A stretch of 64,000 nucleotides of DNA from a virus (lineage: Duplodnaviria; Heunggongvirae; Uroviricota; Caudoviricetes): IMG/VR virus record IMGVR_UViG_2703718817_000003, one strand, 5' to 3'. The notes below the pieces were generated by a model. The model saw nothing but the letters and a program-made list of their open reading frames with translations. It searched no databases and was not told the origin of the DNA. Each line of letters starts with the position of its first letter. Position 1 is the first letter of the stretch. Shown here piece after piece: positions 923-59,368 of this stretch. The position numbers and the translations under genes were made by a program.

Positions 923-1059
923 ATATTTCTCCCGGTCATGGGTTAATAAGTAGGCAAACTATGGTGAGTATATGATTTTGACGGTAGTATCGTTCATCCC
1001 TGAAAATAACATTCTCCATACCCTCTCAAACCGTACCGCTTAAGGCGGATTTAACGGTT

Positions 1060-8645: not shown

Positions 8646-8831
8646 AAATAACAAGTTGGGTAAATGACATACAATTTACCCGGCTTGTTGACCCGCATCA
8701 CCATTTACTCTAAAAACAAGTCCGACCTGTTGCATCCGCTTATCTCTTCAGTAGTATTCCCCTCGGTTTTGATAAAACTAACGCTCTTGTTATTATCGTT
8801 TTCATGATTTCAGGAAGTTTGTGTTAGAAAT

Positions 8832-9278
8832 TTGATGCGAAGACGCAGGCATCATAGTGCGTATTCTGAAATATCCCCGCACGCTGCTGCACTAAGAGAG
8901 TTAGAAAGAAATCCTGACTTATTAAAACGGAATTACGAACATTACGAACAGGTTCGCGTTCTGGATTGGCTGTATCGCAACATGCGATACGTGTATGAGC
9001 ACACACACTCAACACCGAACGGCGGCCTGAGAGGCAAAAGGACAGCCATTAAGATGGTGGCAGAAGGTCAGAAGAAGGGCTATCCGGACCTTTCTATTGA
9101 CCTTGCTCGTGGTGGGTATCACGGAATGCGCATTGAGATGAAGCACGGGAGAAACCGTCTGACTCCCGAACAGCTCGTCTGGATGACCCGCCTCACGGAA
9201 GCAGGCTATTACTGCTTTGAGGCGCGCAGTGCCGATGAAGCCATAAAAGCTATCACGGAATATGTAAATCTTGATTAA
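8832..9278 (+). CDS. VRR-NUC domain nuclease-like protein
   Basis: 148 aa; GYPDLSIDL...EMKHGRNRLTPEQLVWM fits the VRR-NUC (PD-(D/E)xK) pattern G-x-PDL ... E-x-K ... Q. Confidence 0.55.
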   Translation: MMRRRRHHSAYSEISPHAAALRELERNPDLLKRNYEHYEQVRVLDWLYRNMRYVYEHTHSTPNGGLRGKRTAIKMVAEGQKKGYPDLSIDLARGGYHGMRIEMKHGRNRLTPEQLVWMTRLTEAGYYCFEARSADEAIKAITEYVNLD

Positions 9279-9836: not shown

Positions 9837-9875
9837 TGCCTGAGTCTTTTTATTGAAATTGCATACTAATAAAAT

Positions 9876-9890
9876 ATGTTAGAAAACTAA
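9876..9890. promoter_or_regulatory. Operator-like motif ATGTTAGAAAACTAA upstream of the 9911 gene
   Basis: Member of the recurring motif family ATGTTAGAAAATTAA (see findings). Confidence 0.45.
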
Positions 9891-9910: not shown

Positions 9911-11119
9911 ATGAGTCAGCAAGTAGAATCATCAAGCCTGGAGATCATCTCAACCGCAATTGAAACGCTGCGGACACAAATCGCGCTTATACAGAAACGA
10001 AATCCGGGCGATGACCTGTCAAAGCGACTGCATGAGAGCGTCATTGCCACTACAGATAACCTGGTGGCGGAAATCAACCAGCTCCTTGATGATGGGGCAG
10101 TTGATTACAATAAGCTGGTGGATCAGTTTGAGGAGTATCAGCAAGCCGTTAATGATGGCTTGATCCGTTTTTCTCAAGTCACTGGTGTATCAGCGACAGT
10201 TGAAAGCCTGGGGGATGCAGTTAATCAATTTGCCGCGAATATGCGTAATGAGATCGGCAATCTGGAGGCGCGTCTTGAGCAGGCAAATACACTGCGCAAA
10301 TCTGCTGAAGTCGATTTGAGTCGTTACAAAAAAGACTATCCGCCAAGCCTGACAAAACGACTGGATGTTGCGGAGAAAGATAACCGCACGCTGAAAAGAG
10401 AGCGTCGCGAACTAAAAGAGCGTTTAACCAAGCTAAATCAGCAATGCGTTGAGTATCAAGGCGAACTCGTCACACTGCGTAAAAAGTTAGCAGCGGCGCA
10501 GAGCATTATTGAAACATTGAAACGAGAGTGCTCAGAGCTTGGTCATGATCTGAATCGCGCCTGTGGCATGGGGCAAAGGCCAGAGACATTCCCGCTAATG
10601 TATGACGGAAGAGAAGCTATTGCCTATATCCATGAGTTTCCGCATGGTCTGGTCGCGGAGACTGGGCAACGTGGCGAAGCGTTGCTGACGGCAAATTACC
10701 ATCAGCAAATCAGAACCAGCCGCCTGCTGACGATGGATGTGATCCCGTCAGTATGGGGAACGCCGCTTTACTACCGAATTCCTGGCTTCGAAACTGACTG
10801 GAATACCGACATAGACGAATGTCTGGCAGATAAAATTATGGCGTACCTTGAAACGGATTTTCCACGCTTGCATCGCCGGATTATGGACTCTAAGGATGCA
10901 CCGATCGACGAATTGAAAATGCGTCCAGAGACGTTGGAGGCAATCAAGCAGACTGAGTTTGATACAGTGTTCAGTGTGGCCTGCATTCCAAGCAGCTTTC
11001 ATGAAAGCATTCCGTTCATGCAGGGCGATCGCCGTCAGGAAATAATTGATGCTTGCCGGGTATGGGCGAACGAGTGGGATAAGAAGAACGGTGGAGTTGA
11101 AAATCTTTACGGGAAATAA
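9911..11119 (+). CDS. hypothetical protein, N-terminal coiled coil
   Basis: 402 aa ORF with good ATG context (gaaagggaacaaacATG); heptad-rich N-terminal half; bracketed by operator-like motifs. Confidence 0.55.
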   Translation: MSQQVESSSLEIISTAIETLRTQIALIQKRNPGDDLSKRLHESVIATTDNLVAEINQLLDDGAVDYNKLVDQFEEYQQAVNDGLIRFSQVTGVSATVESLGDAVNQFAANMRNEIGNLEARLEQANTLRKSAEVDLSRYKKDYPPSLTKRLDVAEKDNRTLKRERRELKERLTKLNQQCVEYQGELVTLRKKLAAAQSIIETLKRECSELGHDLNRACGMGQRPETFPLMYDGREAIAYIHEFPHGLVAETGQRGEALLTANYHQQIRTSRLLTMDVIPSVWGTPLYYRIPGFETDWNTDIDECLADKIMAYLETDFPRLHRRIMDSKDAPIDELKMRPETLEAIKQTEFDTVFSVACIPSSFHESIPFMQGDRRQEIIDACRVWANEWDKKNGGVENLYGK

Positions 11120-11120
11120 T

Positions 11121-11152
11121 ATGTTAGAAAATTAAAATTGTTTTTCTAACAT
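11121..11152. promoter_or_regulatory. Inverted pair of operator-like motifs (ATGTTAGAAAATTAA ... TTTTCTAACAT)
   Basis: Near-perfect palindrome directly after the 9911-11119 stop. Confidence 0.5.
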
Positions 11153-11980
11153 ATTGATTATGGGGTTAACTTAACATAGAATTTTTCGTGCTGGTGGGGA
11201 GCTTCCCATGTCGCTTGCGGGTTTGATAGTCACTTCATTGTCTTTCCCCACCAGCATCAAACAAATTTAAGTGTTAGAAAGTAAATTTTAAGGTAAGGGA
11301 AAGCTCCGGCACCGTGCAAATACATGCCCGGCAGGTTTAGTGCGTAAAGTGGCTTCAGCGAGAGCATTTTACGGAGTAAACGACAGTGACTTGAGCCACG
11401 GAAGGTCTTTTTATGGTGTTCATTGATGATGATCTGGCAGTGAGTATGTTAAGTGGGCCAGGCTGCATCGGGTCATCATCAGTGCACATCCTCAACGTTA
11501 AGGAGGCGCAGAGTTGGGTTTTCCTCTTATTTTGCTGACTCTGAGTCTCCTTAACGTTGCGGTAATGCACCTATGCGGATGTGGCCTTGCATTGTGTCTT
11601 GAAAGAATGGGGTAAGGCCGGGGATATCCCCAGGGGGAGGCACCCCCGCTGCAACGAACAGCCACAGACGGCAGTCGAGTGATGGAAACGTGCAAAGACT
11701 TTAAACCTCGTTACGGCTGGCGTGGCAAACGCGACAACCGAGACAGAGCGGTGACGGGCGGAGAGAGAGCCGCTTCAAGATAAAAGCCGACTATGGATTC
11801 CTTTCTGCGGGCCTTTGAAAGTGAATCTTGCTCAGGCAGTCGGCTTTTATGTTGATACGTAGCGATAGCCGCGACAGGCGCGGCGGCAAGTATGGCGGGG
11901 TAGTGACTCCTTCCCCCTTATGACGCCGATTTGCCAGGCTGGCCATACGCCTAAGTGGCAATACCGCGAGTGGGATATTT

Positions 11981-12466: not shown

Positions 12467-12543
12467 GATGGTGTAGCTCAGTAGGATAGAGCAGCAGCCT
12501 TCTAAGCTGTCGGTCGGTGGTTCGAATCCACCCACCATCGCCA
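12467..12543 (+). tRNA. tRNA-Arg (anticodon UCU)
   Basis: Manual cloverleaf: acceptor GATGGTG/CACCATC, D-arm GCTC...GAGC, anticodon loop CTTCTAA, T-arm GGTGG-TTCGAAT-CCACC, encoded CCA. Confidence 0.8.
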
Positions 12544-12548
12544 ATTTA

Positions 12549-12635
12549 GGGGAGTTAGTCCGTAGGGGTAGCGGGGTAGACTGTAAATCTACTGTCATTG
12601 CGACTCGGATGGTTCGACTCCATCACTCCCCACCA
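12549..12635 (+). tRNA. tRNA-Tyr (anticodon GUA), class II with long variable arm; D-arm atypical
   Basis: Acceptor GGGGAGT/ACTCCCC, anticodon arm GTAGA-CTGTAAA-TCTAC, variable arm TGTCATTGCGACTCG, T-arm GATGG-TTCGACT-CCATC, CCA encoded. Confidence 0.6.
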
Positions 12636-12639
12636 AATT

Positions 12640-12715
12640 GCCGGTTTAGCTCAGTTGGTAGAGCAGTCGCTTTGTAAGCGAATGGTCAGCGGTTCGATCC
12701 CGTTAACCGGCACCA
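12640..12715 (+). tRNA. tRNA-Thr (anticodon UGU)
   Basis: Acceptor GCCGGTT/AACCGGC, D-arm GCTC-AGTTGGTA-GAGC, anticodon loop TTTGTAA, T-loop TTCGATC, CCA encoded. Confidence 0.85.
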
Positions 12716-12903
12716 ACACAACAGGTAAGGGTATTTTGCGACATCGGAGATCGCCGAGCTTGGCAGAGGGTTCGAATCCCTACGAAGTACCCTTGCCGTT
12801 GTGATGAATGCACAGGCTGATGTGCCGCAACTACAGTAGTGCGCGCTTTGCGGGGCTTGCTACAACCCTGTGTCGGAGTTCAGCACCGACCATCACAATC
12901 ACT

Positions 12904-12990
12904 GGAGAGTAGGGAGCATGGTGCTCAAGCGGTCTTGAAAACCGTCCCATTGCGCAAGCGATGATGGTTCGATTCCATTACTCTCCGCCA
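12904..12990 (+). tRNA. tRNA-Ser-like (anticodon UGA), class II; D-arm noncanonical
   Basis: Acceptor GGAGAGT/ACTCTCC plus GCCA; anticodon arm GCGGT-CTTGAAA-ACCGT; long variable region; T-arm GATGG-TTCGATT-CCATT. Confidence 0.55.
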
Positions 12991-13419
12991 GCGCAACGTT
13001 AAGAGTATTTGGCTAATTAAGCGAATGCCGGAAGCAGAACCGGATCACCAAATGCGTACAGGCGTCATCGCCGCCCAGTCAGCCAAATGCTCTTACCATT
13101 GCGGTGAATGCGGCTAAGCGCACGCGGAACAGTTAAAACAGTAAAGGTGGTCTTTTTACTGGCGTAACGAGCATCCATAAGTGATCCGGCGTTAATTGTT
13201 AACTGGTTAACGTCACCGGGAGGCACCCGGCACCGCAACCTAACAGCAATGGCGTTTTGTCTTAAAAGGTGGCTGCAAGTGATGGATTTTTGGGCGTTTG
13301 CCGATAAAAACCCGGAGTGGACATTATTGTTTCTGCTGGTGGTTGCATACGGGGTAGAGCAAGCGGCAAAAGCCTTACGCGGTTCTGGCAAAAAGCGTAA
13401 GCGTAATTAACAGTAATCT

Positions 13420-13495
13420 GGCCCTTTAGCTCAGTGGTTAGAGCGGGCGACTCATAATCGCACGGTCACCGGTTCAAGTCCGGTAGGGGCCACCA
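13420..13495 (+). tRNA. tRNA-Ile2-like (anticodon CAU, lysidine type) or tRNA-Met
   Basis: GGCCCTTTAGCTCAGTGGTTAGAGC...CTCATAA...GGTTCAAGTCCGG...AGGGGCCACCA; closely resembles enterobacterial ileX from memory. Confidence 0.75.
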
Positions 13496-14525: not shown

Positions 14526-14905
14526 TGTACGAGGCTACTAAATTACGCATTGAGGATGCGATGCACATTGGTTGGGACATCATCACCTGCAAGATAACAT
14601 CATGCAAGGCTACACGCACAGACGCCGGACACAAGAGCACAATATCAGGTTATGTCGTGATGTCAGTCAGGAGTGTGCGCATACGCTTCAGATGGAAAGC
14701 CTGCCAGGTTACATCATCAATGCCGCTTACCGTCGAGCAGGATTACTTATGCTTACCTGAAATAGACGGAGCGTTGCTGGTGGGTAATAGTGGTCGAAAA
14801 GCCGATTTTGAAGCCAGTCTGAAGATGGCCCAGACGGTGATCAACAAACATAAAGGGAAGTGGGAGGCAAAAGTTAAGCATGTTGTTCGTTTATCCCGCT
14901 GGTAG
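14522..14905 (+). CDS. hypothetical protein
   Basis: 127 aa ORF overlapping upstream stop by 4 nt (ATGA). Confidence 0.45.
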   Translation: MMYEATKLRIEDAMHIGWDIITCKITSCKATRTDAGHKSTISGYVVMSVRSVRIRFRWKACQVTSSMPLTVEQDYLCLPEIDGALLVGNSGRKADFEASLKMAQTVINKHKGKWEAKVKHVVRLSRW

Positions 14906-14936
14906 TGTTAGTAAATTAATATTAATTTTCTAATAC
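14905..14936. promoter_or_regulatory. Inverted pair of operator-like motifs (GTGTTAGTAAATTAA ... TTAATTTTCTAATAC)
   Basis: Palindromic copy of the recurring motif between the 14522-14905 gene and the pacAB operon. Confidence 0.45.
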
Positions 14937-15012
14937 ATCATGTTTTTGACAGTCTTCTCAGTATTAACAAGCTGATTATCATCCCCTCGGTCTTTTTCTA
15001 TCCGGGGGATAA

Positions 15013-15405
15013 ATGGAGCAAATCAGTAGCGCCGAAATAGCGGATATCATGATCAGGGCTGACTGCTATCTGACGGTCACCGAAATCACCAGCCGTGCAA
15101 AAGCACAATATCCTCACCTTCATGTGTCGCGCGTAAACGTAAATAACATCATACGTTTTTTTGTTCGTTCCAGTCGTGCCATTTGCGAAATAGACGACCG
15201 CGTATACCCCCGGAAATATTGGTTACATGGCCTGAATGGATACCAGTTCAAGGTGCGCGGGCGCACTCCTGAATTCGGTCGGCTGTTGGTGAAAAACACC
15301 AACCGAAAGATAGAAGCTCAATTACGAAAGGAGCAGCGTCAGTTGGTGGCGATGACTAACCAGCTATGGAACGCCGCTGTGAAAAAACGTGAGGCTTCCC
15401 TATGA
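15013..15405 (+). CDS. hypothetical protein upstream of pacA (position of P1 lpa)
   Basis: 130 aa ORF overlapping pacA start by 4 nt; function inferred from position only. Confidence 0.4.
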   Translation: MEQISSAEIADIMIRADCYLTVTEITSRAKAQYPHLHVSRVNVNNIIRFFVRSSRAICEIDDRVYPRKYWLHGLNGYQFKVRGRTPEFGRLLVKNTNRKIEAQLRKEQRQLVAMTNQLWNAAVKKREASL

Positions 15406-18311: not shown

Positions 18312-19349
18312 TTACCAGAGTTTTGCCGCGTACATCGTTTGTGTGAATGTGTACCCATAGCGTTCTTCAACGCTTTTACCGTATTTTTTCCTGGCTTCAG
18401 TAAGGCGGATGCCTGTCAGGTCATCGCCGGAGGCAATCATAACTTCCAGTAGTTCCAGGTCCATTTTATCCAGCCTTGCCATTGCATCTTTAGCCTCTTG
18501 AATTTTCCGGCTAACGATCTGGTGTATGGCTGGATCGGCTTCGGCCAGCATTTTATCTGATTTGTTTTTTAAACTCTGATTGCGGATATCAATGTTTCTC
18601 AGGATATATGACTTCACGACATAGCTTGGCTGCTGCTTTTCCAGATCACGAACCCGATAAAGGTCAAATTCGCCGAGAAGTCCGCACGGAAGCGGTTTAA
18701 TGCCAGTGTAAATGGTAAGGGTACGGCGCTCACCAACGTTGTTAACAACGGGAATCTCTGTGTTTGCTTTTCTTGCAAAGATCAGCGCACCGTGCGCACC
18801 CACTCGGAAGCGTGAAAGTCCATTGTTGCCCTCGATATTGGTGGTAATCACCACATCGGTATAACCTTCTTTTCTTGCGCGGTATACCTCGCCCTCACGT
18901 TCAGCGGCGAAGAATCTGCGTTCTTCTTCAAGCGCACCGACAACCTGTGAAAATATCCTGTTTTTCATGCTTTTCTTTATAGTTTTATCGTATTTTTTCA
19001 GCAGGTCTTCGCGCGTAAATGTTCTCGTTGTGGTTGCGCTTTGCATAACGATATGCGTACTCTGATTAGTATCCTCAACAATGAATGGGATCGGTAAATA
19101 AACCGACTCAACAATGTTTGAGGCTTTGTCATCATCCTTGCGACACAGATCAACAAAGGCTTTCCATTCGGCTATGCATTTTTCAGCTTCTTCTAATACA
19201 GCCGGATCATGTGTTAATGCAACATGGCGAAATTCCTCGCCAACATAACTGGTATCATGGAAAACAGAGTTTGCGACCACCAGCTCTTTCCACCGTTCGG
19301 CGGTTTGCAGGAACCGTTTGTACTCATTCTCGATCGACTTCTTACTCAT
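18312..19349 (-). CDS. hypothetical protein; candidate C1-like immunity repressor by position
   Basis: 345 aa from ATG at 19349 (MSKKSIENEY...); the longer track ORF to 19637 is rejected. Lies between pacB and the lox-like site/cre, the position of c1 in P1; operator-like motif at 19364-19378 directly upstream. Confidence 0.4.
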   Translation of the reverse strand: MSKKSIENEYKRFLQTAERWKELVVANSVFHDTSYVGEEFRHVALTHDPAVLEEAEKCIAEWKAFVDLCRKDDDKASNIVESVYLPIPFIVEDTNQSTHIVMQSATTTRTFTREDLLKKYDKTIKKSMKNRIFSQVVGALEEERRFFAAEREGEVYRARKEGYTDVVITTNIEGNNGLSRFRVGAHGALIFARKANTEIPVVNNVGERRTLTIYTGIKPLPCGLLGEFDLYRVRDLEKQQPSYVVKSYILRNIDIRNQSLKNKSDKMLAEADPAIHQIVSRKIQEAKDAMARLDKMDLELLEVMIASGDDLTGIRLTEARKKYGKSVEERYGYTFTQTMYAAKLW

Positions 19350-19363
19350 TATTCCTACTCGAT

Positions 19364-19378
19364 TTAGTTTTCTAACAT
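19364..19378. promoter_or_regulatory. Operator-like motif TTAGTTTTCTAACAT upstream of the candidate repressor gene
   Basis: Recurring motif family; consistent with autoregulation. Confidence 0.45.
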
Positions 19379-19545
19379 AAAAGTCCTGTGACAAATTTAT
19401 GCTGAATAACAAGGTGAGTAAAGGATAAAACCGCTTTTTTTTGATTGTTCCTATTAGAAAATGTAGCCAGGAACGGCTACCGCATGGCTGACGGATTTGC
19501 GAAGTGATCTGGTCGGTGTTTTTTTGGGAAAAAAGCCCCGATTCC

Positions 19546-19575
19546 AACTTTAAATAATTGGCATTATTTAAAGTT
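19546..19575. other. lox-like recombination site candidate (perfect 13-4-13 palindrome, readable as 11-8-11)
   Basis: AACTTTAAATAAT-TGGC-ATTATTTAAAGTT, 155 bp upstream of the Cre-like gene; arm AACTTTAAATA matches 8 of 11 positions of the loxP arm AACTTCGTATA. Confidence 0.4.
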
Positions 19576-19728
19576 AGGCTATAATCTCCAGTAAACAGGT
19601 AGTATTGACAAGGATGAAAAATCATGCCTCGAATCAAAGGCTTGAATTTTGAAAATTAACTTATAACTACCCTGTCAGTTTTCTATTTTTCATGTAGCGT
19701 TATCTGTATATAGAGGTTTAATAGTTTC

Positions 19729-20758: not shown

Positions 20759-20773
20759 TTAATTTTCTAACAA
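20759..20773. promoter_or_regulatory. Operator-like motif TTAATTTTCTAACAA just after the cre stop
   Basis: Recurring motif family; precedes the 20830 operon. Confidence 0.4.
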
Positions 20774-31021: not shown

Positions 31022-31716
31022 CGTTTGCTATCTTCCTCACACCCAAGATATGAAAGAGATGTAATTGCTTTTGCACGGAAACCACCAACCTTGCTAAGTG
31101 CGCTTTTAAGTGCGTCAAGGTCAGATTGTGATTTGATCATGAAAGTTAACCGCGCAATTCCAGACATAGAGTCAGAACCATTCACTGCGTTGTAGTGATA
31201 TATGTATCGGGTGACTGATTGAGTCACGCCCTCCTGCTGGTGGTTTATATTGGCGTCCTGTCTTGTGTTGGCCTGCTCCAACTCTTCGATACGTTCAGCC
31301 ATCGCAGCACACTCTTCAAAGTTGCTTAATGCTTTTCGCTCCGATTCAGCGCATTGTTTTTCCAGTTCTGCTATGCGCTTACCTCCATCCGCGATTACTC
31401 CCTCGTAATGCTCGCGCTGCTCGTTGAGTTTTGATTTTGCCGACTCCAGTTGTTTTGTTAGTTCCACAATACGGCAAACATCGTTGATACGCGTTTCCTC
31501 TAATGCGTTGATCTCATCCAGTAGTGCCAAAGCAACCTTGGGATTAAAGGCAGCAATAAATTCAGCGTTGTTTTTCAGAACGTGTTGCGCAATGGCCTGA
31601 CTACTTAGTCGGACCTCATAACCACGTGCGCCACGGTGTGGTTTATATGAGTCCCAGTCTCCCCACGTTGCTTTCACTGCCGCCTCACGCAGTGCCTGGT
31701 AATTAATTTCGCTCAC
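31018..31716 (-). CDS. Ead/Ea22-like coiled-coil protein
   Basis: GTG start; N-terminus [15 protein letters not shown] shared with the 31703 and 37245 paralogs; coiled-coil centre. Confidence 0.55.
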   Translation of the reverse strand: MSEINYQALREAAVKATWGDWDSYKPHRGARGYEVRLSSQAIAQHVLKNNAEFIAAFNPKVALALLDEINALEETRINDVCRIVELTKQLESAKSKLNEQREHYEGVIADGGKRIAELEKQCAESERKALSNFEECAAMAERIEELEQANTRQDANINHQQEGVTQSVTRYIYHYNAVNGSDSMSGIARLTFMIKSQSDLDALKSALSKVGGFRAKAITSLSYLGCEEDSKR

Positions 31717-34665: not shown

Positions 34666-34697
34666 ATGTTAGAAAATTAAAATCAATATTCTAACAC
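34666..34697. promoter_or_regulatory. Inverted pair of operator-like motifs (ATGTTAGAAAATTAA ... ATATTCTAACAC)
   Basis: In the gap between the ppp gene stop and the 33629-34624 gene start. Confidence 0.5.
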
Positions 34698-39511: not shown

Positions 39512-39543
39512 GTGTTAGAAAATCAATTTTGATTTTCTAACAC
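39512..39543. promoter_or_regulatory. Near-perfect operator palindrome GTGTTAGAAAATCAA-TT-TTGATTTTCTAACAC in a divergent promoter region
   Basis: Best-formed copy of the recurring motif, between the minus-strand operon head and the Ref-like gene. Confidence 0.55.
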
Positions 39544-39587: not shown

Positions 39588-40163
39588 ATGAAGCAAAGCT
39601 ATTGGGAGAAACAGACACAAAAAGCCCTGCAAAAACTGGCTGATCCGAAATGGCGGGAGGAACAAAGGGCAAAGCGTCTTCAGCAAGCTCAACGCCTGCA
39701 GCAGCGTGCGCGAGAAAAAGCCGCATCGCCTGAATATCGGCAAAAGAAAATTGAAAAAGCGAAGCAATATGAACAGCGAAGAAAAGAGAAGGCCGCTTCT
39801 GCTCCTGTCAAAAAAACTCGCGCGTCACGCGGCCTGAAAGGCAGAACACTCACAGCAGATGAGCGCCGGATACAAACTGCCATCGGTGCTCTCCCCTGCA
39901 TTGCCTGCCATATGCACGGACAGCATAGCCCTGTGGTATCCCTGCACCACATCTTCGGAAGAACAGCAGAGAACGCGCATAAATACGTCCTCCCTTTGTG
40001 TAAATGGCACCATCAACACGCAGCGCCAGCAGAGATCCGCGAGCAATACCCCTGGTTGGTTCCTGTTCATGCTGATGGAAAAATAGGCGGCAAAGCAGAT
40101 TTCAGGCGGCACAATGCTGATGAAATGACGTTGTATCAGATGGTGACTGAATTAATAAATTAA
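39588..40163 (+). CDS. ref: Ref-like HNH endonuclease (basic disordered N-terminus plus HNH/His-Me finger)
   Basis: K/R/Q-rich N-terminal ~75 aa; C-terminal CIACHMHGQHSPVVSLHHIFGR...LPLCKWHHQH HNH-type motif; alternative TTG start at 39546. Confidence 0.55.
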   Translation: MKQSYWEKQTQKALQKLADPKWREEQRAKRLQQAQRLQQRAREKAASPEYRQKKIEKAKQYEQRRKEKAASAPVKKTRASRGLKGRTLTADERRIQTAIGALPCIACHMHGQHSPVVSLHHIFGRTAENAHKYVLPLCKWHHQHAAPAEIREQYPWLVPVHADGKIGGKADFRRHNADEMTLYQMVTELIN

Positions 40164-40174
40164 TTTTCTAACAT
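40160..40174. promoter_or_regulatory. Operator-like motif TTAATTTTCTAACAT overlapping the ref stop
   Basis: Recurring motif family. Confidence 0.4.
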
Positions 40175-40662: not shown

Positions 40663-40763
40663 TAAAACACACAGTTGCGCCCTGGCATTATCGTGGGGTA
40701 TATTTCTACGGCACCTTAGAAAAACGGGTGCCGGGATTGGAACCCCGGATAATGTCAAAGGCG

Positions 40764-40796
40764 ACACAGACGCCGAAAGCGTCTTTTTTTGTGTCA
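40764..40796 (+). terminator. Rho-independent terminator
   Basis: GACACAGACGC-CGAAA-GCGTCTTTTTTTGTGTC. Confidence 0.6.
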
Positions 40797-40975
40797 TGCC
40801 ATCGCGCAGCCATACGTAGCGTTTAGCTCAGAGATCAATGGTAGTGCTGGCTGGGCTGCCGAAAGGCAGGCCGGTTCCCTTTGACGCCGGTAGTTCCAAC
40901 CCAGTCAGTGCTACCGCCATTGAGATTGGAACCTCACGCGGTAGCTCCTTAACTTAGTCAAAGGAGGCTGCCAAT

Positions 40976-43539: not shown

Positions 43540-43804
43540 GTAAAAAAACTGAAGTTTTATGTTACAAAAGCAAACATGTACGCCAAAATGACCTAGGCCA
43601 AATTCAGCGCGAATAAAAAATTCAAAAAAATTGTTGACACTATTCTGGAAATCACAATCTGGACAAAATCCATTACGCAAACGGCTCCCGTTGAAGGTTC
43701 TTTTGACGACTAACTTTCAGCCGATGCGCGGTAGGGAGTCATAACGCCAAAGCAGGCCGCCATGTGCGGCCTTTTTTTGTGCCTGCTATCGTGGAGTAAA
43801 AGCC

Positions 43805-44458: not shown

Positions 44459-44794
44459 TCAACTCAGTAGCTTTGTTAACTCCCTTAATACAAGGTAGAA
44501 GAGTAACAAAAACACTGACGTGGATACCTGCTGAGTTAAAGAAGCACTAATGAATTTATTCAATAAATCAATCAGCTTATTAAAAATATTCATCTTTTCG
44601 AATCCATTCGATCGGTAAATAACACCCAGCTCACTATCGAGCTGGTCCATGCCTTAAGATTAATGAAAGTCACTTGTTGACAGTCAATAAATTCCAGGGC
44701 GGCGAAAAAACTCTGTCTATACGGATAGTGCTTGCATTTTGCTCTTTCTGCGTGTAGCGTATATACACAGGTTACACGCACGAATGGAATTATT

Positions 44795-46986: not shown

Positions 46987-47187
46987 GTGTTTGCAAGGAC
47001 ATGAATAGTACACTATTATGATGGTGAAGGAATGGTACATGTTGAACCAAACCTTCGAGGATGCAGCAGACTGAAGAAATTCAGACATCCCGCAACCAGC
47101 TATCATAACAGGTCAAACCAGTTGTGATACTTGGTCAAGGCAAAGTCCGGTAATGGCGTTCTGAATACCAGAAAATAATTTCTGGCG

Positions 47188-47217
47188 AAGCCCACCTTAA
47201 GGTGGGCTTTGTTATTT
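47188..47217. terminator. Bidirectional Rho-independent terminator
   Basis: AAGCCCACC-TTAA-GGTGGGCTT with T-rich tracts on both sides, between convergent genes. Confidence 0.6.
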
Positions 47218-51119: not shown

Positions 51120-51133
51120 CAAAATGCAAAACT

Positions 51134-51165
51134 GTGTTAGATAATTGAGTTTTATTTTCTAACAC
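51134..51165. promoter_or_regulatory. Inverted pair of operator-like motifs (GTGTTAGATAATTGA ... TTATTTTCTAACAC)
   Basis: Directly upstream of the rdgC-like start. Confidence 0.5.
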
Positions 51166-51178
51166 AGTTTTGCGAAAC

Positions 51179-59224: not shown

Positions 59225-59290
59225 ATGTTAGAAAATTAAGATTAAAACATACTAACACAAGATTGTTAACGAAAATTATTTTTCTAATGC
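59225..59290. promoter_or_regulatory. Cluster of operator-like motifs in a divergent promoter region
   Basis: ATGTTAGAAAATTAA (59225-59239), AACATACTAACAC (59246-59258) and TTATTTTTCTAATGC (59277-59290). Confidence 0.5.
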
Positions 59291-59368
59291 TATTGACTAA
59301 ATAACAAAGTGAGTATTGTCACCTCGTCAAAAGAATCTTCACGCCGCGCCCGAATTTAGGGTTTAACC

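What the first reader, a model, noticed from the sequence alone, without database searches (positions are those of the whole stretch)
39512..39543. Recurring 15-bp operator motif at ten or more intergenic sites: a candidate C1-like global repressor network
ATGTTAGAAAATTAA (reverse complement TTAATTTTCTAACAT), often as inverted pairs, occurs at 9876, 11121-11152, 11271, 14905-14936, 19364, 20759, 34666-34697, 39512-39543, 40160, 51134-51165 and 59225-59290. Every copy is intergenic, directly upstream of an operon head: the candidate repressor gene, the cre-downstream operon, pacAB, ref, rdgC/methyltransferases, the capsid gene and the long minus-strand operon. P1 C1 controls many dispersed operators; this motif differs from the P1 consensus ATTGCTCTAATAAATTT as recalled, so it may be an undescribed repressor-operator specificity.
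Basis: partly seen in the sequence, partly recalled or inferred. Interest (0 to 1): 0.65.

Follow-up and report, generated by a model that had tools for sequence, protein, structure and literature searches.

The report
D6-type phage repressor operator network
A 15-19 bp sequence repeated at ten gene-free spots of this P1-like plasmid prophage is very probably the docking site of the phage's master repressor, a distant cousin of P1 C1 with a different DNA specificity, and that repressor is predicted to share the fold of Tus, the bacterial replication-terminator protein.

Summary
tRTGTTAGAAAATTAAwwT occurs as 16 strong sites at 10 loci (5 single, 5 fixed-geometry inverted pairs). All are non-coding or straddle stop codons, where chance predicts about 1-2 weak matches.

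The window is a D6-like relative of phage P1. The sites sit where P1 carries proven C1 operators: upstream of lpa, c1, ref, hrdC-dcm-dam and pmgS, at the end of ref ahead of the C4/icd/ant module, and (in D6) upstream of repL. The core is the conserved island in otherwise diverged intergenic DNA, even in plasmids whose C1 is only 40% identical.

Motif and repressor lineage change together. P1 uses TTAGAGCA, the D6 clade GTTAGAAA, and Leclercia/Citrobacter/Pantoea plasmids cCTTAGAAT. Late operons carry a separate box (AAATCACA-N7-TAnnnT), which rules out the late-promoter reading.

This is a new operator specificity of a known kind of network. Binding itself was not tested.

The parts
18312..19349 (-). 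c1-type repressor gene (345 aa), the proposed binder of the motif
   Evidence: 81% identical to D6 'prophage repressor'. 21% identical to P1 C1, E 2e-7. NF041318 phage_rep_C1 E 2.5e-5 over residues 9-244. Syntenic between pacB and rox/cre. AF2 model pLDDT 84.5 with a Tus-like fold.
19364..19378 (-). single operator 15 bp upstream of the c1 ATG (autoregulation; counterpart of P1 Oc1)
   Evidence: 1 mismatch, 25.1 bits. Conserved in D6, Shigella and Enterobacter plasmids.
14905..14936 (.). inverted operator pair upstream of lpa (late-gene activator; lpa-pacA-pacB); counterpart of P1 Olpa
   Evidence: 26.2 and 27.8 bits. lpa = PF25716, E 3.7e-50. One half-site is conserved in all four D6-clade genomes. 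Predicted promoter TTCTCA-16-TATCAT at 14955-14982.
39512..39543 (.). the flagged site: perfect 32-bp palindromic operator pair between the divergent orf88 operon (-) and ref (+); counterpart of P1 Oref
   Evidence: The left half-site is conserved in D6, Shigella and Enterobacter; the right half is decayed in D6 and Enterobacter.
40160..40174 (-). single operator straddling the ref stop codon, ahead of the immI-type module (isrK-like RNA 40711-40789, C4 RNA 40834-40921, icd 40976, antirepressor 41191); counterpart of P1 Omat/Oc4
   Evidence: Exact match, 30.1 bits. Rfam C4 77.1 bits. Footprint.
51134..51165 (.). inverted operator pair upstream of hrdC(rdgC)-dcm-dam; counterpart of P1 Odmt
   Evidence: 23.8 and 25.2 bits. 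ATTTTCTAACA is invariant in four genomes.
34666..34697 (.). inverted operator pair upstream of pdcB (minus-strand operon)
   Evidence: 30.7 and 23.5 bits. Orthologous pairs or sites in D6 (80707/80722), Shigella (34068/34083) and Enterobacter (27553).
11121..11152 (.). inverted operator pair just after pmgS, overlapping or abutting two predicted tandem promoters that face the tRNA cluster (12467-13492); resembles P1 bivalent Oban
   Evidence: 30.7 and 26.6 bits. Promoters TTGAAA-17-TATGTT (11097-11125) and TTGATT-17-TAGAAT (11154-11182). tRNAs.
11271..11285 (+). weaker single operator-like site
   Evidence: 3 mismatches, 20.0 bits.
9876..9890 (+). single operator overlapping the -10 of the predicted pmgS promoter (TTGAAA-16-TATGTT, 9853-9880); counterpart of P1 OpmgR
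   Evidence: 29.4 bits. Promoter. Identical site in D6 at 10315.
20759..20773 (-). single operator at the cre/dre stop codon, upstream of the orf117-orf116-dut operon
   Evidence: 27.5 bits. Orthologous sites at D6 89946 and Shigella 44797.
59225..59239 (+). single operator 16 bp from the start of divergent orf52 (-) and 130 bp upstream of the capsid gene; a degenerate partner or second site lies at about 59273-59291
   Evidence: Exact match, 29.6 bits; weak site 16.2 bits. Footprint. The capsid gene has a separate late box at 59299-59319.
8821..8835 (+). weak operator-like site immediately upstream of pmgM (position of P1 O26); uncertain
   Evidence: 3 mismatches, 12.9 bits.
15013..15405 (+). 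lpa, late-promoter activator: the key target through which repression of one operator would silence all late operons
   Evidence: PF25716, E 3.7e-50. 34% identical to P1 Lpa.

Best explanation
The motif is the operator of the D6-type C1 immunity repressor encoded at 18312-19349.

Proposed mechanism. One repressor molecule recognises one asymmetric site of about 15-19 bp (tRTGTTAGAAAATTAAwwT). Sites occur singly ('monovalent') or as a fixed head-to-head pair ('bivalent': a 32-bp palindrome with the TTAGA cores 21 bp, or two helical turns, apart). They sit on or beside the sigma-70 promoters of the early/lytic operons.

In the plasmid prophage state, C1 would shut off:
- lpa, and through it every late operon
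- the immI antirepressor module
- ref
- hrdC-dcm-dam
- pmgS
- the tRNA operon
- pdcB
- the operon downstream of cre
- repL (in D6)
- its own gene, by autoregulation

Induction would have to go through the C4-RNA-controlled antirepressor, because Coi and Lxc homologs are absent.

The repressor is predicted to have the two-domain Tus fold, which would let a monomer clamp a long non-palindromic site.

Shown here: the motif statistics, its location, its conservation, its positional orthology to P1 operators, the repressor/motif co-variation, the homology of the protein, and the predicted fold.

Inferred: that C1 is the binder, that binding represses, that the stoichiometry is one monomer per site, and which promoters are hit.
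For: Enrichment and strict non-coding location.

The same motif is found at orthologous sites in D6 (C1 81% identical to the window's), a Shigella plasmid (69%) and an Enterobacter plasmid (40%). There it is the conserved island in diverged spacers.

Positions correspond to P1's annotated, experimentally based C1 operators: Olpa, Oc1, Oref, Omat/Oc4, Odmt, OpmgR, O26, Oban and OrepL. P1 C1 controls RepL and Lpa through dispersed 17-bp asymmetric operators (PMC8546580).

Co-variation table: TTAGAGCA is 16x in P1 and 0-1 elsewhere. GTTAGAAA is 13-16x in D6-clade genomes. CTTAGAAT is 9x in Leclercia, 7x in 41 kb of Citrobacter, and 0 in P1 and D6-clade genomes. All sit at the same gene junctions.

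Whether a locus holds a single site or a pair changes between relatives, while the single site persists. That points to the asymmetric single site as the functional unit.

Operators overlap or abut predicted promoters at pmgS and the tRNA operon.

C1 homology. Tus-like fold in two independent models. Invariant Arg41, Arg157, Arg159 and Arg182 lie on predicted beta-strands.
Against: There is no binding or expression data of any kind.

Homology of the 345-aa protein to P1 C1 is weak (21% identity; NF041318 scores 23.9 bits against a curated cutoff of 500).

At most sites no good sigma-70 promoter could be called next to the operator. At lpa the pair lies about 20 bp upstream of the predicted -35 rather than on it.

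The pair geometry (non-overlapping, 21 bp centre to centre, TTAGA...TCTAA) differs from P1 bivalent operators (overlapping, TCTAA...TTAGT, about 13 bp apart).

Another phage-encoded protein that co-evolves with the genome could in principle be the binder.

The Tus similarity rests on AF2 models from a 9-sequence alignment (pTM 0.54, TM-scores 0.34-0.45), with no sequence support (hhalign probability 0.3%).
Confidence: 0.82

Rival explanations
1. The motif is the operator of a different phage-encoded DNA-binding protein (a Cro-like lytic repressor, an antirepressor-linked factor, or an unannotated regulator) rather than of the C1 homolog; or it is shared by C1 and a second protein.
For: Nothing here ties the motif physically to C1. 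The co-variation is between motif and whole-genome lineage, so any co-inherited regulator would show it. The window has many small ORFs of unknown function.
Against: The one gene always adjacent to a site, syntenic with P1 c1 and homologous to it, is the 345-aa protein. The regulon matches the P1 C1 regulon locus by locus. An autoregulatory site sits 15 bp from its ATG in all four D6-clade genomes.
Confidence: 0.1
2. The motif is the late-promoter element recognised by the Lpa activator (the D6 version of the P1 '-22 box').
For: Lpa is only 34% identical to P1 Lpa, so a changed box is expected. One site lies upstream of the capsid gene.
Against: Sites lie upstream of early/immunity genes (c1, lpa itself, ref, immI, hrdC-dam; repL in D6). 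They are absent from the 23-54 kb morphogenesis/lysis block of D6. Late operons carry a different, significantly enriched box, AAAT[C/A]ACA-N7-TAnnnT, placed like the P1 -22 box. D6 has 9 against 0.34 expected, upstream of darB, the PG hydrolase gene, prt, ddrB, lydA, R, pmgB, MCP and mat. The window has 4 against 0.14.
Confidence: 0.03
3. The palindromes act at the RNA level (hairpins, terminators, processing sites) or are small mobile or recombination repeats, not protein operators.
For: The five pairs fold into strong hairpins (-13.6 to -20.3 kcal/mol, z -5.6 to -8.2).
Against: Half the loci are single sites with no fold (0 to -1.2 kcal/mol). The same locus is a pair in one genome and a single in another, while the single-site sequence stays conserved. 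No T-run follows the hairpins. The sequence itself is conserved with no compensatory changes. There are no target duplications or flanking element ends.
Confidence: 0.03
4. The motif consists of chance AT-rich promoter-like sequences or binding sites for a host nucleoid protein.
For: The motif is AT-rich and intergenic DNA is AT-rich.
Against: About 25-30 bits per site. Zero PWM hits of >=9 bits in the 94.8-kb P1 genome, which has the same host and similar intergenic composition. About 1 hit per shuffled window at a far lower threshold. The motif is replaced by another at the same junctions in Leclercia and Citrobacter plasmids.
Confidence: 0.02

Closest known systems
Phage P1 (and P7) C1 repressor with its ~17-22 dispersed 17-bp asymmetric operators (ATTGCTCTAATAAATTT), immC/immI immunity system
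   Same: Distantly homologous repressor gene in the same place (pacB-c1-lox/cre). Many dispersed operators at the heads of the same operons (lpa, c1, ref, end of ref/c4, dmt, pmgR/S, repL). Asymmetric sites occur singly or as inverted pairs. Shared TTAGA core. C4 antisense RNA plus icd plus an antirepressor module are present.
   Different: Operator sequence: no P1-type operator in the window at <=3 mismatches, and no D6-type site in P1. Repressor is 345 aa against 283 aa, only 21% identical, with an extra C-terminal helical region. Pairs are non-overlapping with cores 21 bp apart in the opposite relative orientation. No Coi, ImcA/B, Lxc or Ant1 homologs. The antirepressor is of a different (Roi/KilA-like) type.
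Phage D6 (MF356679 / AY753669), the sequenced type phage of this clade
   Same: Same motif at the orthologous sites. C1 81% identical. Same gene order.
   Different: The window's phage is a distinct member (about 87-88% nucleotide identity, mosaic). Several loci are pairs here but singles in D6. Neither D6 GenBank record annotates any operator.
Tus-Ter replication fork barrier of E. coli (PDB 1ECR, 4XR0-2; Pfam PF05472)
   Different: No detectable sequence similarity (hhalign probability 0.3%; no PF05472 hit). Different biological role (transcriptional repression at many sites rather than polar fork arrest). No genuine Ter site in the window.
Lambdoid CI/Cro-type immunity repressors
   Same: Master lysogeny repressor that is autoregulated and opposed by antirepressors.
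   Different: Those are HTH dimers binding clustered palindromic operators at one or two control regions. Here the sites are asymmetric, dispersed over the whole genome and predicted to be bound by a non-HTH fold.

Membership tests
P1-type C1 repressor / dispersed-operator immunity network | Repressor homologous to P1 C1 and encoded in immC next to pacB and lox/cre | tested here: met
   BLASTP E 2e-7, 21% identity over 241 aa. NF041318 E 2.5e-5, residues 9-244, far below the equivalog cutoff. P0012 bridges both (29% identical to the window C1; E 3e-12 to P1 C1). Synteny.
P1-type C1 repressor / dispersed-operator immunity network | Operators match the P1 consensus ATTGCTCTAATAAATTT | tested here: not met
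   0 matches at <=3 mismatches in the window. 0 D6-type PWM hits in P1. Only the TTAGA/TCTAA core is shared.
P1-type C1 repressor / dispersed-operator immunity network | Many operators dispersed over the genome at heads of early/lytic operons, including lpa, repL and c1 itself | tested here: met
   10 loci in the 64-kb window. Orthologous to Olpa, Oc1, Oref, Omat/Oc4, Odmt, OpmgR, O26 and Oban. A repL site is present in D6.
P1-type C1 repressor / dispersed-operator immunity network | Asymmetric operator used singly (monovalent) or as an inverted pair (bivalent) | tested here: met
   5 single and 5 paired loci. Pairs always have the same spacing. Pair/single status is labile between relatives. 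The geometry differs from P1 bivalent operators.
P1-type C1 repressor / dispersed-operator immunity network | C1 protein binds the operators and represses transcription | not testable with these tools
   Needs EMSA or footprinting, ChIP and reporter assays.
P1-type C1 repressor / dispersed-operator immunity network | Accessory modulators Coi (inactivator) and Lxc (corepressor) | tested here: not met
   tblastn of P1 Coi, Lxc and ImcA/B against the window and the whole D6 genome gives nothing better than E 0.076. Lxc was also reported missing in D6-like pYU39_89 (PMC6799933). Only 64 kb of this phage was searched.
P1-type C1 repressor / dispersed-operator immunity network | immI module: C4 antisense RNA, icd, antirepressor | tested here: met
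   Rfam C4 77.1 bits at 40834-40921. icd E 7e-23. The antirepressor homolog is of D6 orf82 type, not Ant1.
Tus (Ter-binding protein) family, PF05472 | Tus two-domain fold | tested here: met
   [not shown]
Tus (Ter-binding protein) family, PF05472 | Sequence membership in the Pfam Ter family | tested here: not met
   No PF05472 hit at E <= 10. hhalign probability 0.3%. No PDB sequence hit at E <= 1.
Tus (Ter-binding protein) family, PF05472 | Monomeric binding to an asymmetric site, and polar arrest of replication forks | not testable with these tools
   Single asymmetric sites are compatible with monomer binding. Fork arrest is untested.

The most novel reading that the evidence does not exclude
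C1-family immunity repressors of P1/D6-like plasmid prophages are remote structural homologs of Tus. Each would be a monomeric two-domain clamp that reads a long asymmetric site through its interdomain beta-strands. The family has diversified into at least three operator specificities around a common TTAGA core (P1, D6 and Leclercia classes). [quoted passage not shown] C1-operator complexes might also have polar effects on replication forks.
Probability: 0.4. Interest if true: 0.8.

Novelty: new variant of a known kind. Interest (0 to 1): 0.58.

Why it matters
D6-like plasmid prophages are common in E. coli, Salmonella and Shigella: 153 plasmid records carry this repressor.

Knowing the operator gives four things:
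- the immunity specificity, meaning which phage-plasmids exclude each other
- the regulon
- an orthogonal repressor/operator set for the Dre/rox toolbox phage
- a natural series of three specificities for studying how a non-HTH repressor re-targets

The predicted Tus fold would explain the long-known oddity that P1 C1 reads asymmetric operators. It would also make the origin of Tus experimentally approachable.

Tried and rejected
(1) The P1 late-promoter box AAGTGACTT looked like a possible identity for the motif. The sequences are unrelated, and the window has only one exact P1-type box.

(2) I tested a fixed promoter register, with tATGTT of the motif as the -10. It holds only at 9876 and 11121 and not at the other sites. 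Strict sigma-70 scans near the remaining sites found nothing convincing.

(3) The unbiased 11-mer repeat discovery was swamped by Chi (GCTGGTGG) variants. It still ranked TGTTAGAAAAT as the top non-Chi repeat in the window and recovered the P1 operator in P1.

(4) CCTTAGAATTA at 2 mismatches was too short to be significant. Exact 8-mer counts replaced it.

(5) Sequence-level link to Tus: none.

(6) Literature: the D6 genome paper (PMC5800970), Sauer & McDermott 2004 (PMC534624) and Lobocka 2004 (PMC523184) are not held. Full-text searches for the motif, for D6 operators and for a C1-Tus link found nothing relevant.

(7) The afdb50 fold library was unavailable.

(8) The Pfam copy has no model for C1. 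PF27008 is listed only in the precomputed hits.

Full report
**What the window is.** Megablast places the window in the D6 lineage of P1-like plasmid prophages. It has about 87% identity to phage D6 over the alignable two thirds, and 98% to unnamed E. coli plasmids. Mapping D6 proteins onto the window with tblastn gives a gene map:
- darB, ulx, pmgM, pmgR, pmgS
- a tRNA cluster
- lpa-pacA-pacB
- c1 (18312-19349, minus strand)
- a rox-like site and the cre/dre recombinase
- dut, phd/doc, humD
- a long minus-strand block of small early genes
- ref
- an immI-type module
- mat, tail genes, hrdC-dcm-dam, partition genes
- the capsid and sheath genes

**The observation.** ATGTTAGAAAATTAA occurs 4 times exactly, with none in 100 shuffles. 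At up to 3 mismatches there are 19 matches against 2.2 expected. Every coordinate in the finding is correct, and 39512-39543 is a perfect 32-bp palindrome.

Aligning the sites extends the informative region to about 19 nt, tRTGTTAGAAAATTAAwwT, with near-invariant TGTTAGAAAA. A PWM gives 16 sites of 20-31 bits at 10 loci in the window, about 1 hit per shuffled window at a much lower threshold, and none in the whole P1 genome.

Against an over-inclusive ORF map (91% 'coding'), 8 of 10 loci are non-coding (P = 1.7e-7). The other two are artefacts of mechanically extended or spurious ORFs, so in effect all ten are intergenic or straddle a stop codon. An unbiased search for repeated 11-mers ranks TGTTAGAAAAT first after Chi-site variants, and the same method recovers the known C1 operator in P1.

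**What the motif is not.** P1 late promoters carry AAGTGACTT four bases upstream of the -10, which is unrelated to this motif.

The late operons of D6 and the window have their own enriched element, AAAT[C/A]ACA-N7-TAnnnT, placed like the P1 -22 box. D6 has 9 hits against 0.34 expected, upstream of darB, the peptidoglycan hydrolase gene, prt, ddrB, lydA, R, pmgB/sit, the capsid gene and mat. The window has 4 against 0.14. None coincides with a TGTTAGAAAAT site, and no such site lies in the 23-54 kb morphogenesis/lysis block of D6.

The paired sites fold as RNA hairpins, but the single sites do not, and pairing is not conserved between relatives. RNA structure is therefore not the selected feature. 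There is no P1-type operator and no Ter site in the window.

**What it is.** The sites fall where P1 carries its annotated C1 operators:

| Window position | Location | P1 counterpart |
|---|---|---|
| 14905-14936 | upstream of lpa | Olpa |
| 19364 | 15 bp from the c1 ATG | Oc1 |
| 39512-39543 | between ref and a divergent operon | Oref |
| 40160 | on the ref stop codon, ahead of isrK-like RNA, C4 antisense RNA, icd and an antirepressor | Omat / Oc4 |
| 51134-51165 | upstream of hrdC-dcm-dam | Odmt |
| 9876 | upstream of pmgS | OpmgR |
| 8821 (weak) | upstream of pmgM | O26 |
| 11121-11152 | ahead of the tRNA cluster | bivalent Oban |

D6 also has sites upstream of repL (OrepL) and of its second immI module. 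Further sites lie after cre (20759), upstream of pdcB (34666-34697), and next to the start of orf52, divergent from the capsid gene (59225).

In P1, C1 represses RepL and Lpa through dispersed 17-bp asymmetric operators (PMC8546580).

**Conservation and co-variation.** The same motif occupies the orthologous junctions in D6 (C1 81% identical), a Shigella plasmid (69%) and an Enterobacter plasmid (40%). In alignments of six intergenic regions, the TGTTAGAAAA core is the conserved island in otherwise diverged sequence.

Plasmids whose C1 is only about 30% identical (Leclercia, Citrobacter, Pantoea) carry a different repeated motif, cCTTAGAATyW, at the same junctions: c1 upstream, after cre, ref, rdgC, lpa-like and repL-like.

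Counts of the diagnostic 8-mers separate three classes cleanly:

| 8-mer | Where enriched | Elsewhere |
|---|---|---|
| TTAGAGCA | 16 in P1 | 0-1 |
| GTTAGAAA | 13-16 in the four D6-clade genomes | 5 in P1, 2 in Leclercia |
| CTTAGAAT | 9 in Leclercia, 7 in 41 kb of Citrobacter | 0 in P1 and the D6-clade genomes; 2 in 41 kb of Pantoea |

All three share TTAGA, so the operators look like diverged versions of one ancestral site. Motif class tracks repressor lineage.

**Architecture.** Five loci are single sites. Five are inverted pairs, always with the same register (15-mers separated by 2 bp; TTAGA and TCTAA cores 21 bp apart). The lpa, ref and pmgS-downstream loci are pairs here but singles in D6 or Enterobacter. 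The asymmetric single site is therefore the unit, as in P1's 'monovalent' and 'bivalent' operators. The pair geometry differs from P1, where half-sites overlap and face the other way.

Predicted sigma-70 promoters overlap or abut the operator at pmgS (the -10 is the tATGTT of the motif) and at the tRNA operon (two tandem promoters). The predicted lpa promoter lies about 20 bp downstream of the pair. Elsewhere no promoter could be assigned.

**The repressor.** The 345-aa product of 18312-19349 is 21% identical to P1 C1 (E 2e-7). It hits NCBIfam phage_rep_C1 at E 2.5e-5 over residues 9-244. It is linked to P1 C1 through the intermediate P0012. Homologs of Coi, ImcA/B, Lxc and Ant1 are absent from the window and from D6.

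There is no sequence-level similarity to Tus. Invariant arginines (R41, R157, R159, R182) lie on predicted beta-strands. In Tus, from my own knowledge, interdomain strands read the major groove of an asymmetric site as a monomer.

TerB lies directly upstream of tus. It reads GTATGTTGTAACTAA, and operators such as TATGTTAGAAAACTAA share ATGTT...AACTAA with it. I treat this as possibly coincidental.

I found no paper connecting C1 and Tus. [quoted passage not shown]

**Verdict.** It remains a prediction until binding is shown.

It is a new variant of a well-known kind of system, and a P1 specialist would expect D6 to have its own operators. It may already be noted in the D6 genome paper, which I could not read; neither D6 GenBank record annotates operators. 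The more surprising outcome of the follow-up is the predicted Tus fold of the C1 family.

Noticed in passing
[not shown]
   Followed up: yes
window 1004-1024 (+), 43649-43669 (+), 44617-44637 (+), 59299-59319 (+); D6 (L003/L004) record coordinates 19171, 19215, 25221, 27727, 31511, 38115, 45491, 54124, 72100: Candidate D6-type late promoter: box AAAT[C/A]ACA, 7 nt, then a -10-like TAnnnT, upstream of darB, the PG hydrolase gene, prt, ddrB, lydA, R, pmgB, the capsid gene and mat. D6 has 9 against 0.34 expected. It differs from the P1 Lpa box AAGTGACTT-N4-TAnnnT. P1 itself has one copy, at 31571-31591, just upstream of lydC.
   Followed up: partly
L011/L012 (Leclercia NZ_CP040893), L015 (Citrobacter NZ_CP114569), L014 (Pantoea NZ_CP134741): A third operator class, cCTTAGAATyW, sits at the same gene junctions in P1/D6-like plasmids whose C1 is about 30% identical to the window's. 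Examples: Leclercia record coordinates 10457, 13224, 66137, 77555, 78614, 78947, 85000.
   Followed up: partly
window 19450-19466: A second, degenerate operator-like element (ATTAGAAAATG; TTTTCTAA conserved in all four D6-clade genomes) lies about 100 bp upstream of c1. It is reminiscent of the multiple Oc1 operators of P1 and of possible looping.
   Followed up: partly
window 19550-19581 and 19558-19585 (+): A rox-like site, cAACTTTAAATAATTGGCATTATTTAAAGTTA, for the Dre-type recombinase. A near-consensus promoter (TTGGCA-16-TATAAT, 11/12) starts in its spacer and points at the recombinase gene.
   Followed up: no
whole window (e.g. 4533, 7682, 14773, 22073, 34547, 46924): Chi sites (GCTGGTGG and one-mismatch variants) are the most over-represented 11-mers in the window and in all P1/D6-like genomes examined.
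   Followed up: no
window 9858-9875: ATTGCATACTAATAAAAT in the spacer of the predicted pmgS promoter resembles the P1 operator ATTGCTCTAATAAATTT with a 2-nt insertion. It may be a decayed P1-type operator next to the D6-type one, or chance.
   Followed up: no
window 47025-47210 (+); 40711-40789 (+): Rfam hits above gathering score to sroH sRNA (113 bits, between tail genes g25 and g7) and to isrK (62.7 bits, immediately upstream of the C4 antisense RNA).
   Followed up: no
window 51127-51172: The hrdC operator pair is embedded in a longer 46-nt palindrome (CAAAACTGTGTTAG...CTAACACAGTTTTG; -20.3 kcal/mol as RNA), right after the last gene of the tail operon. A secondary role as a terminator or insulator is possible.
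   Followed up: no
window and D6 whole genome: No homologs of P1 Coi, ImcA/B, Lxc or Ant1. The antirepressor downstream of C4/icd is of a different (Roi/KilA-like) type, and D6 has two such immI modules. Control of C1 activity must therefore differ from P1.
   Followed up: partly
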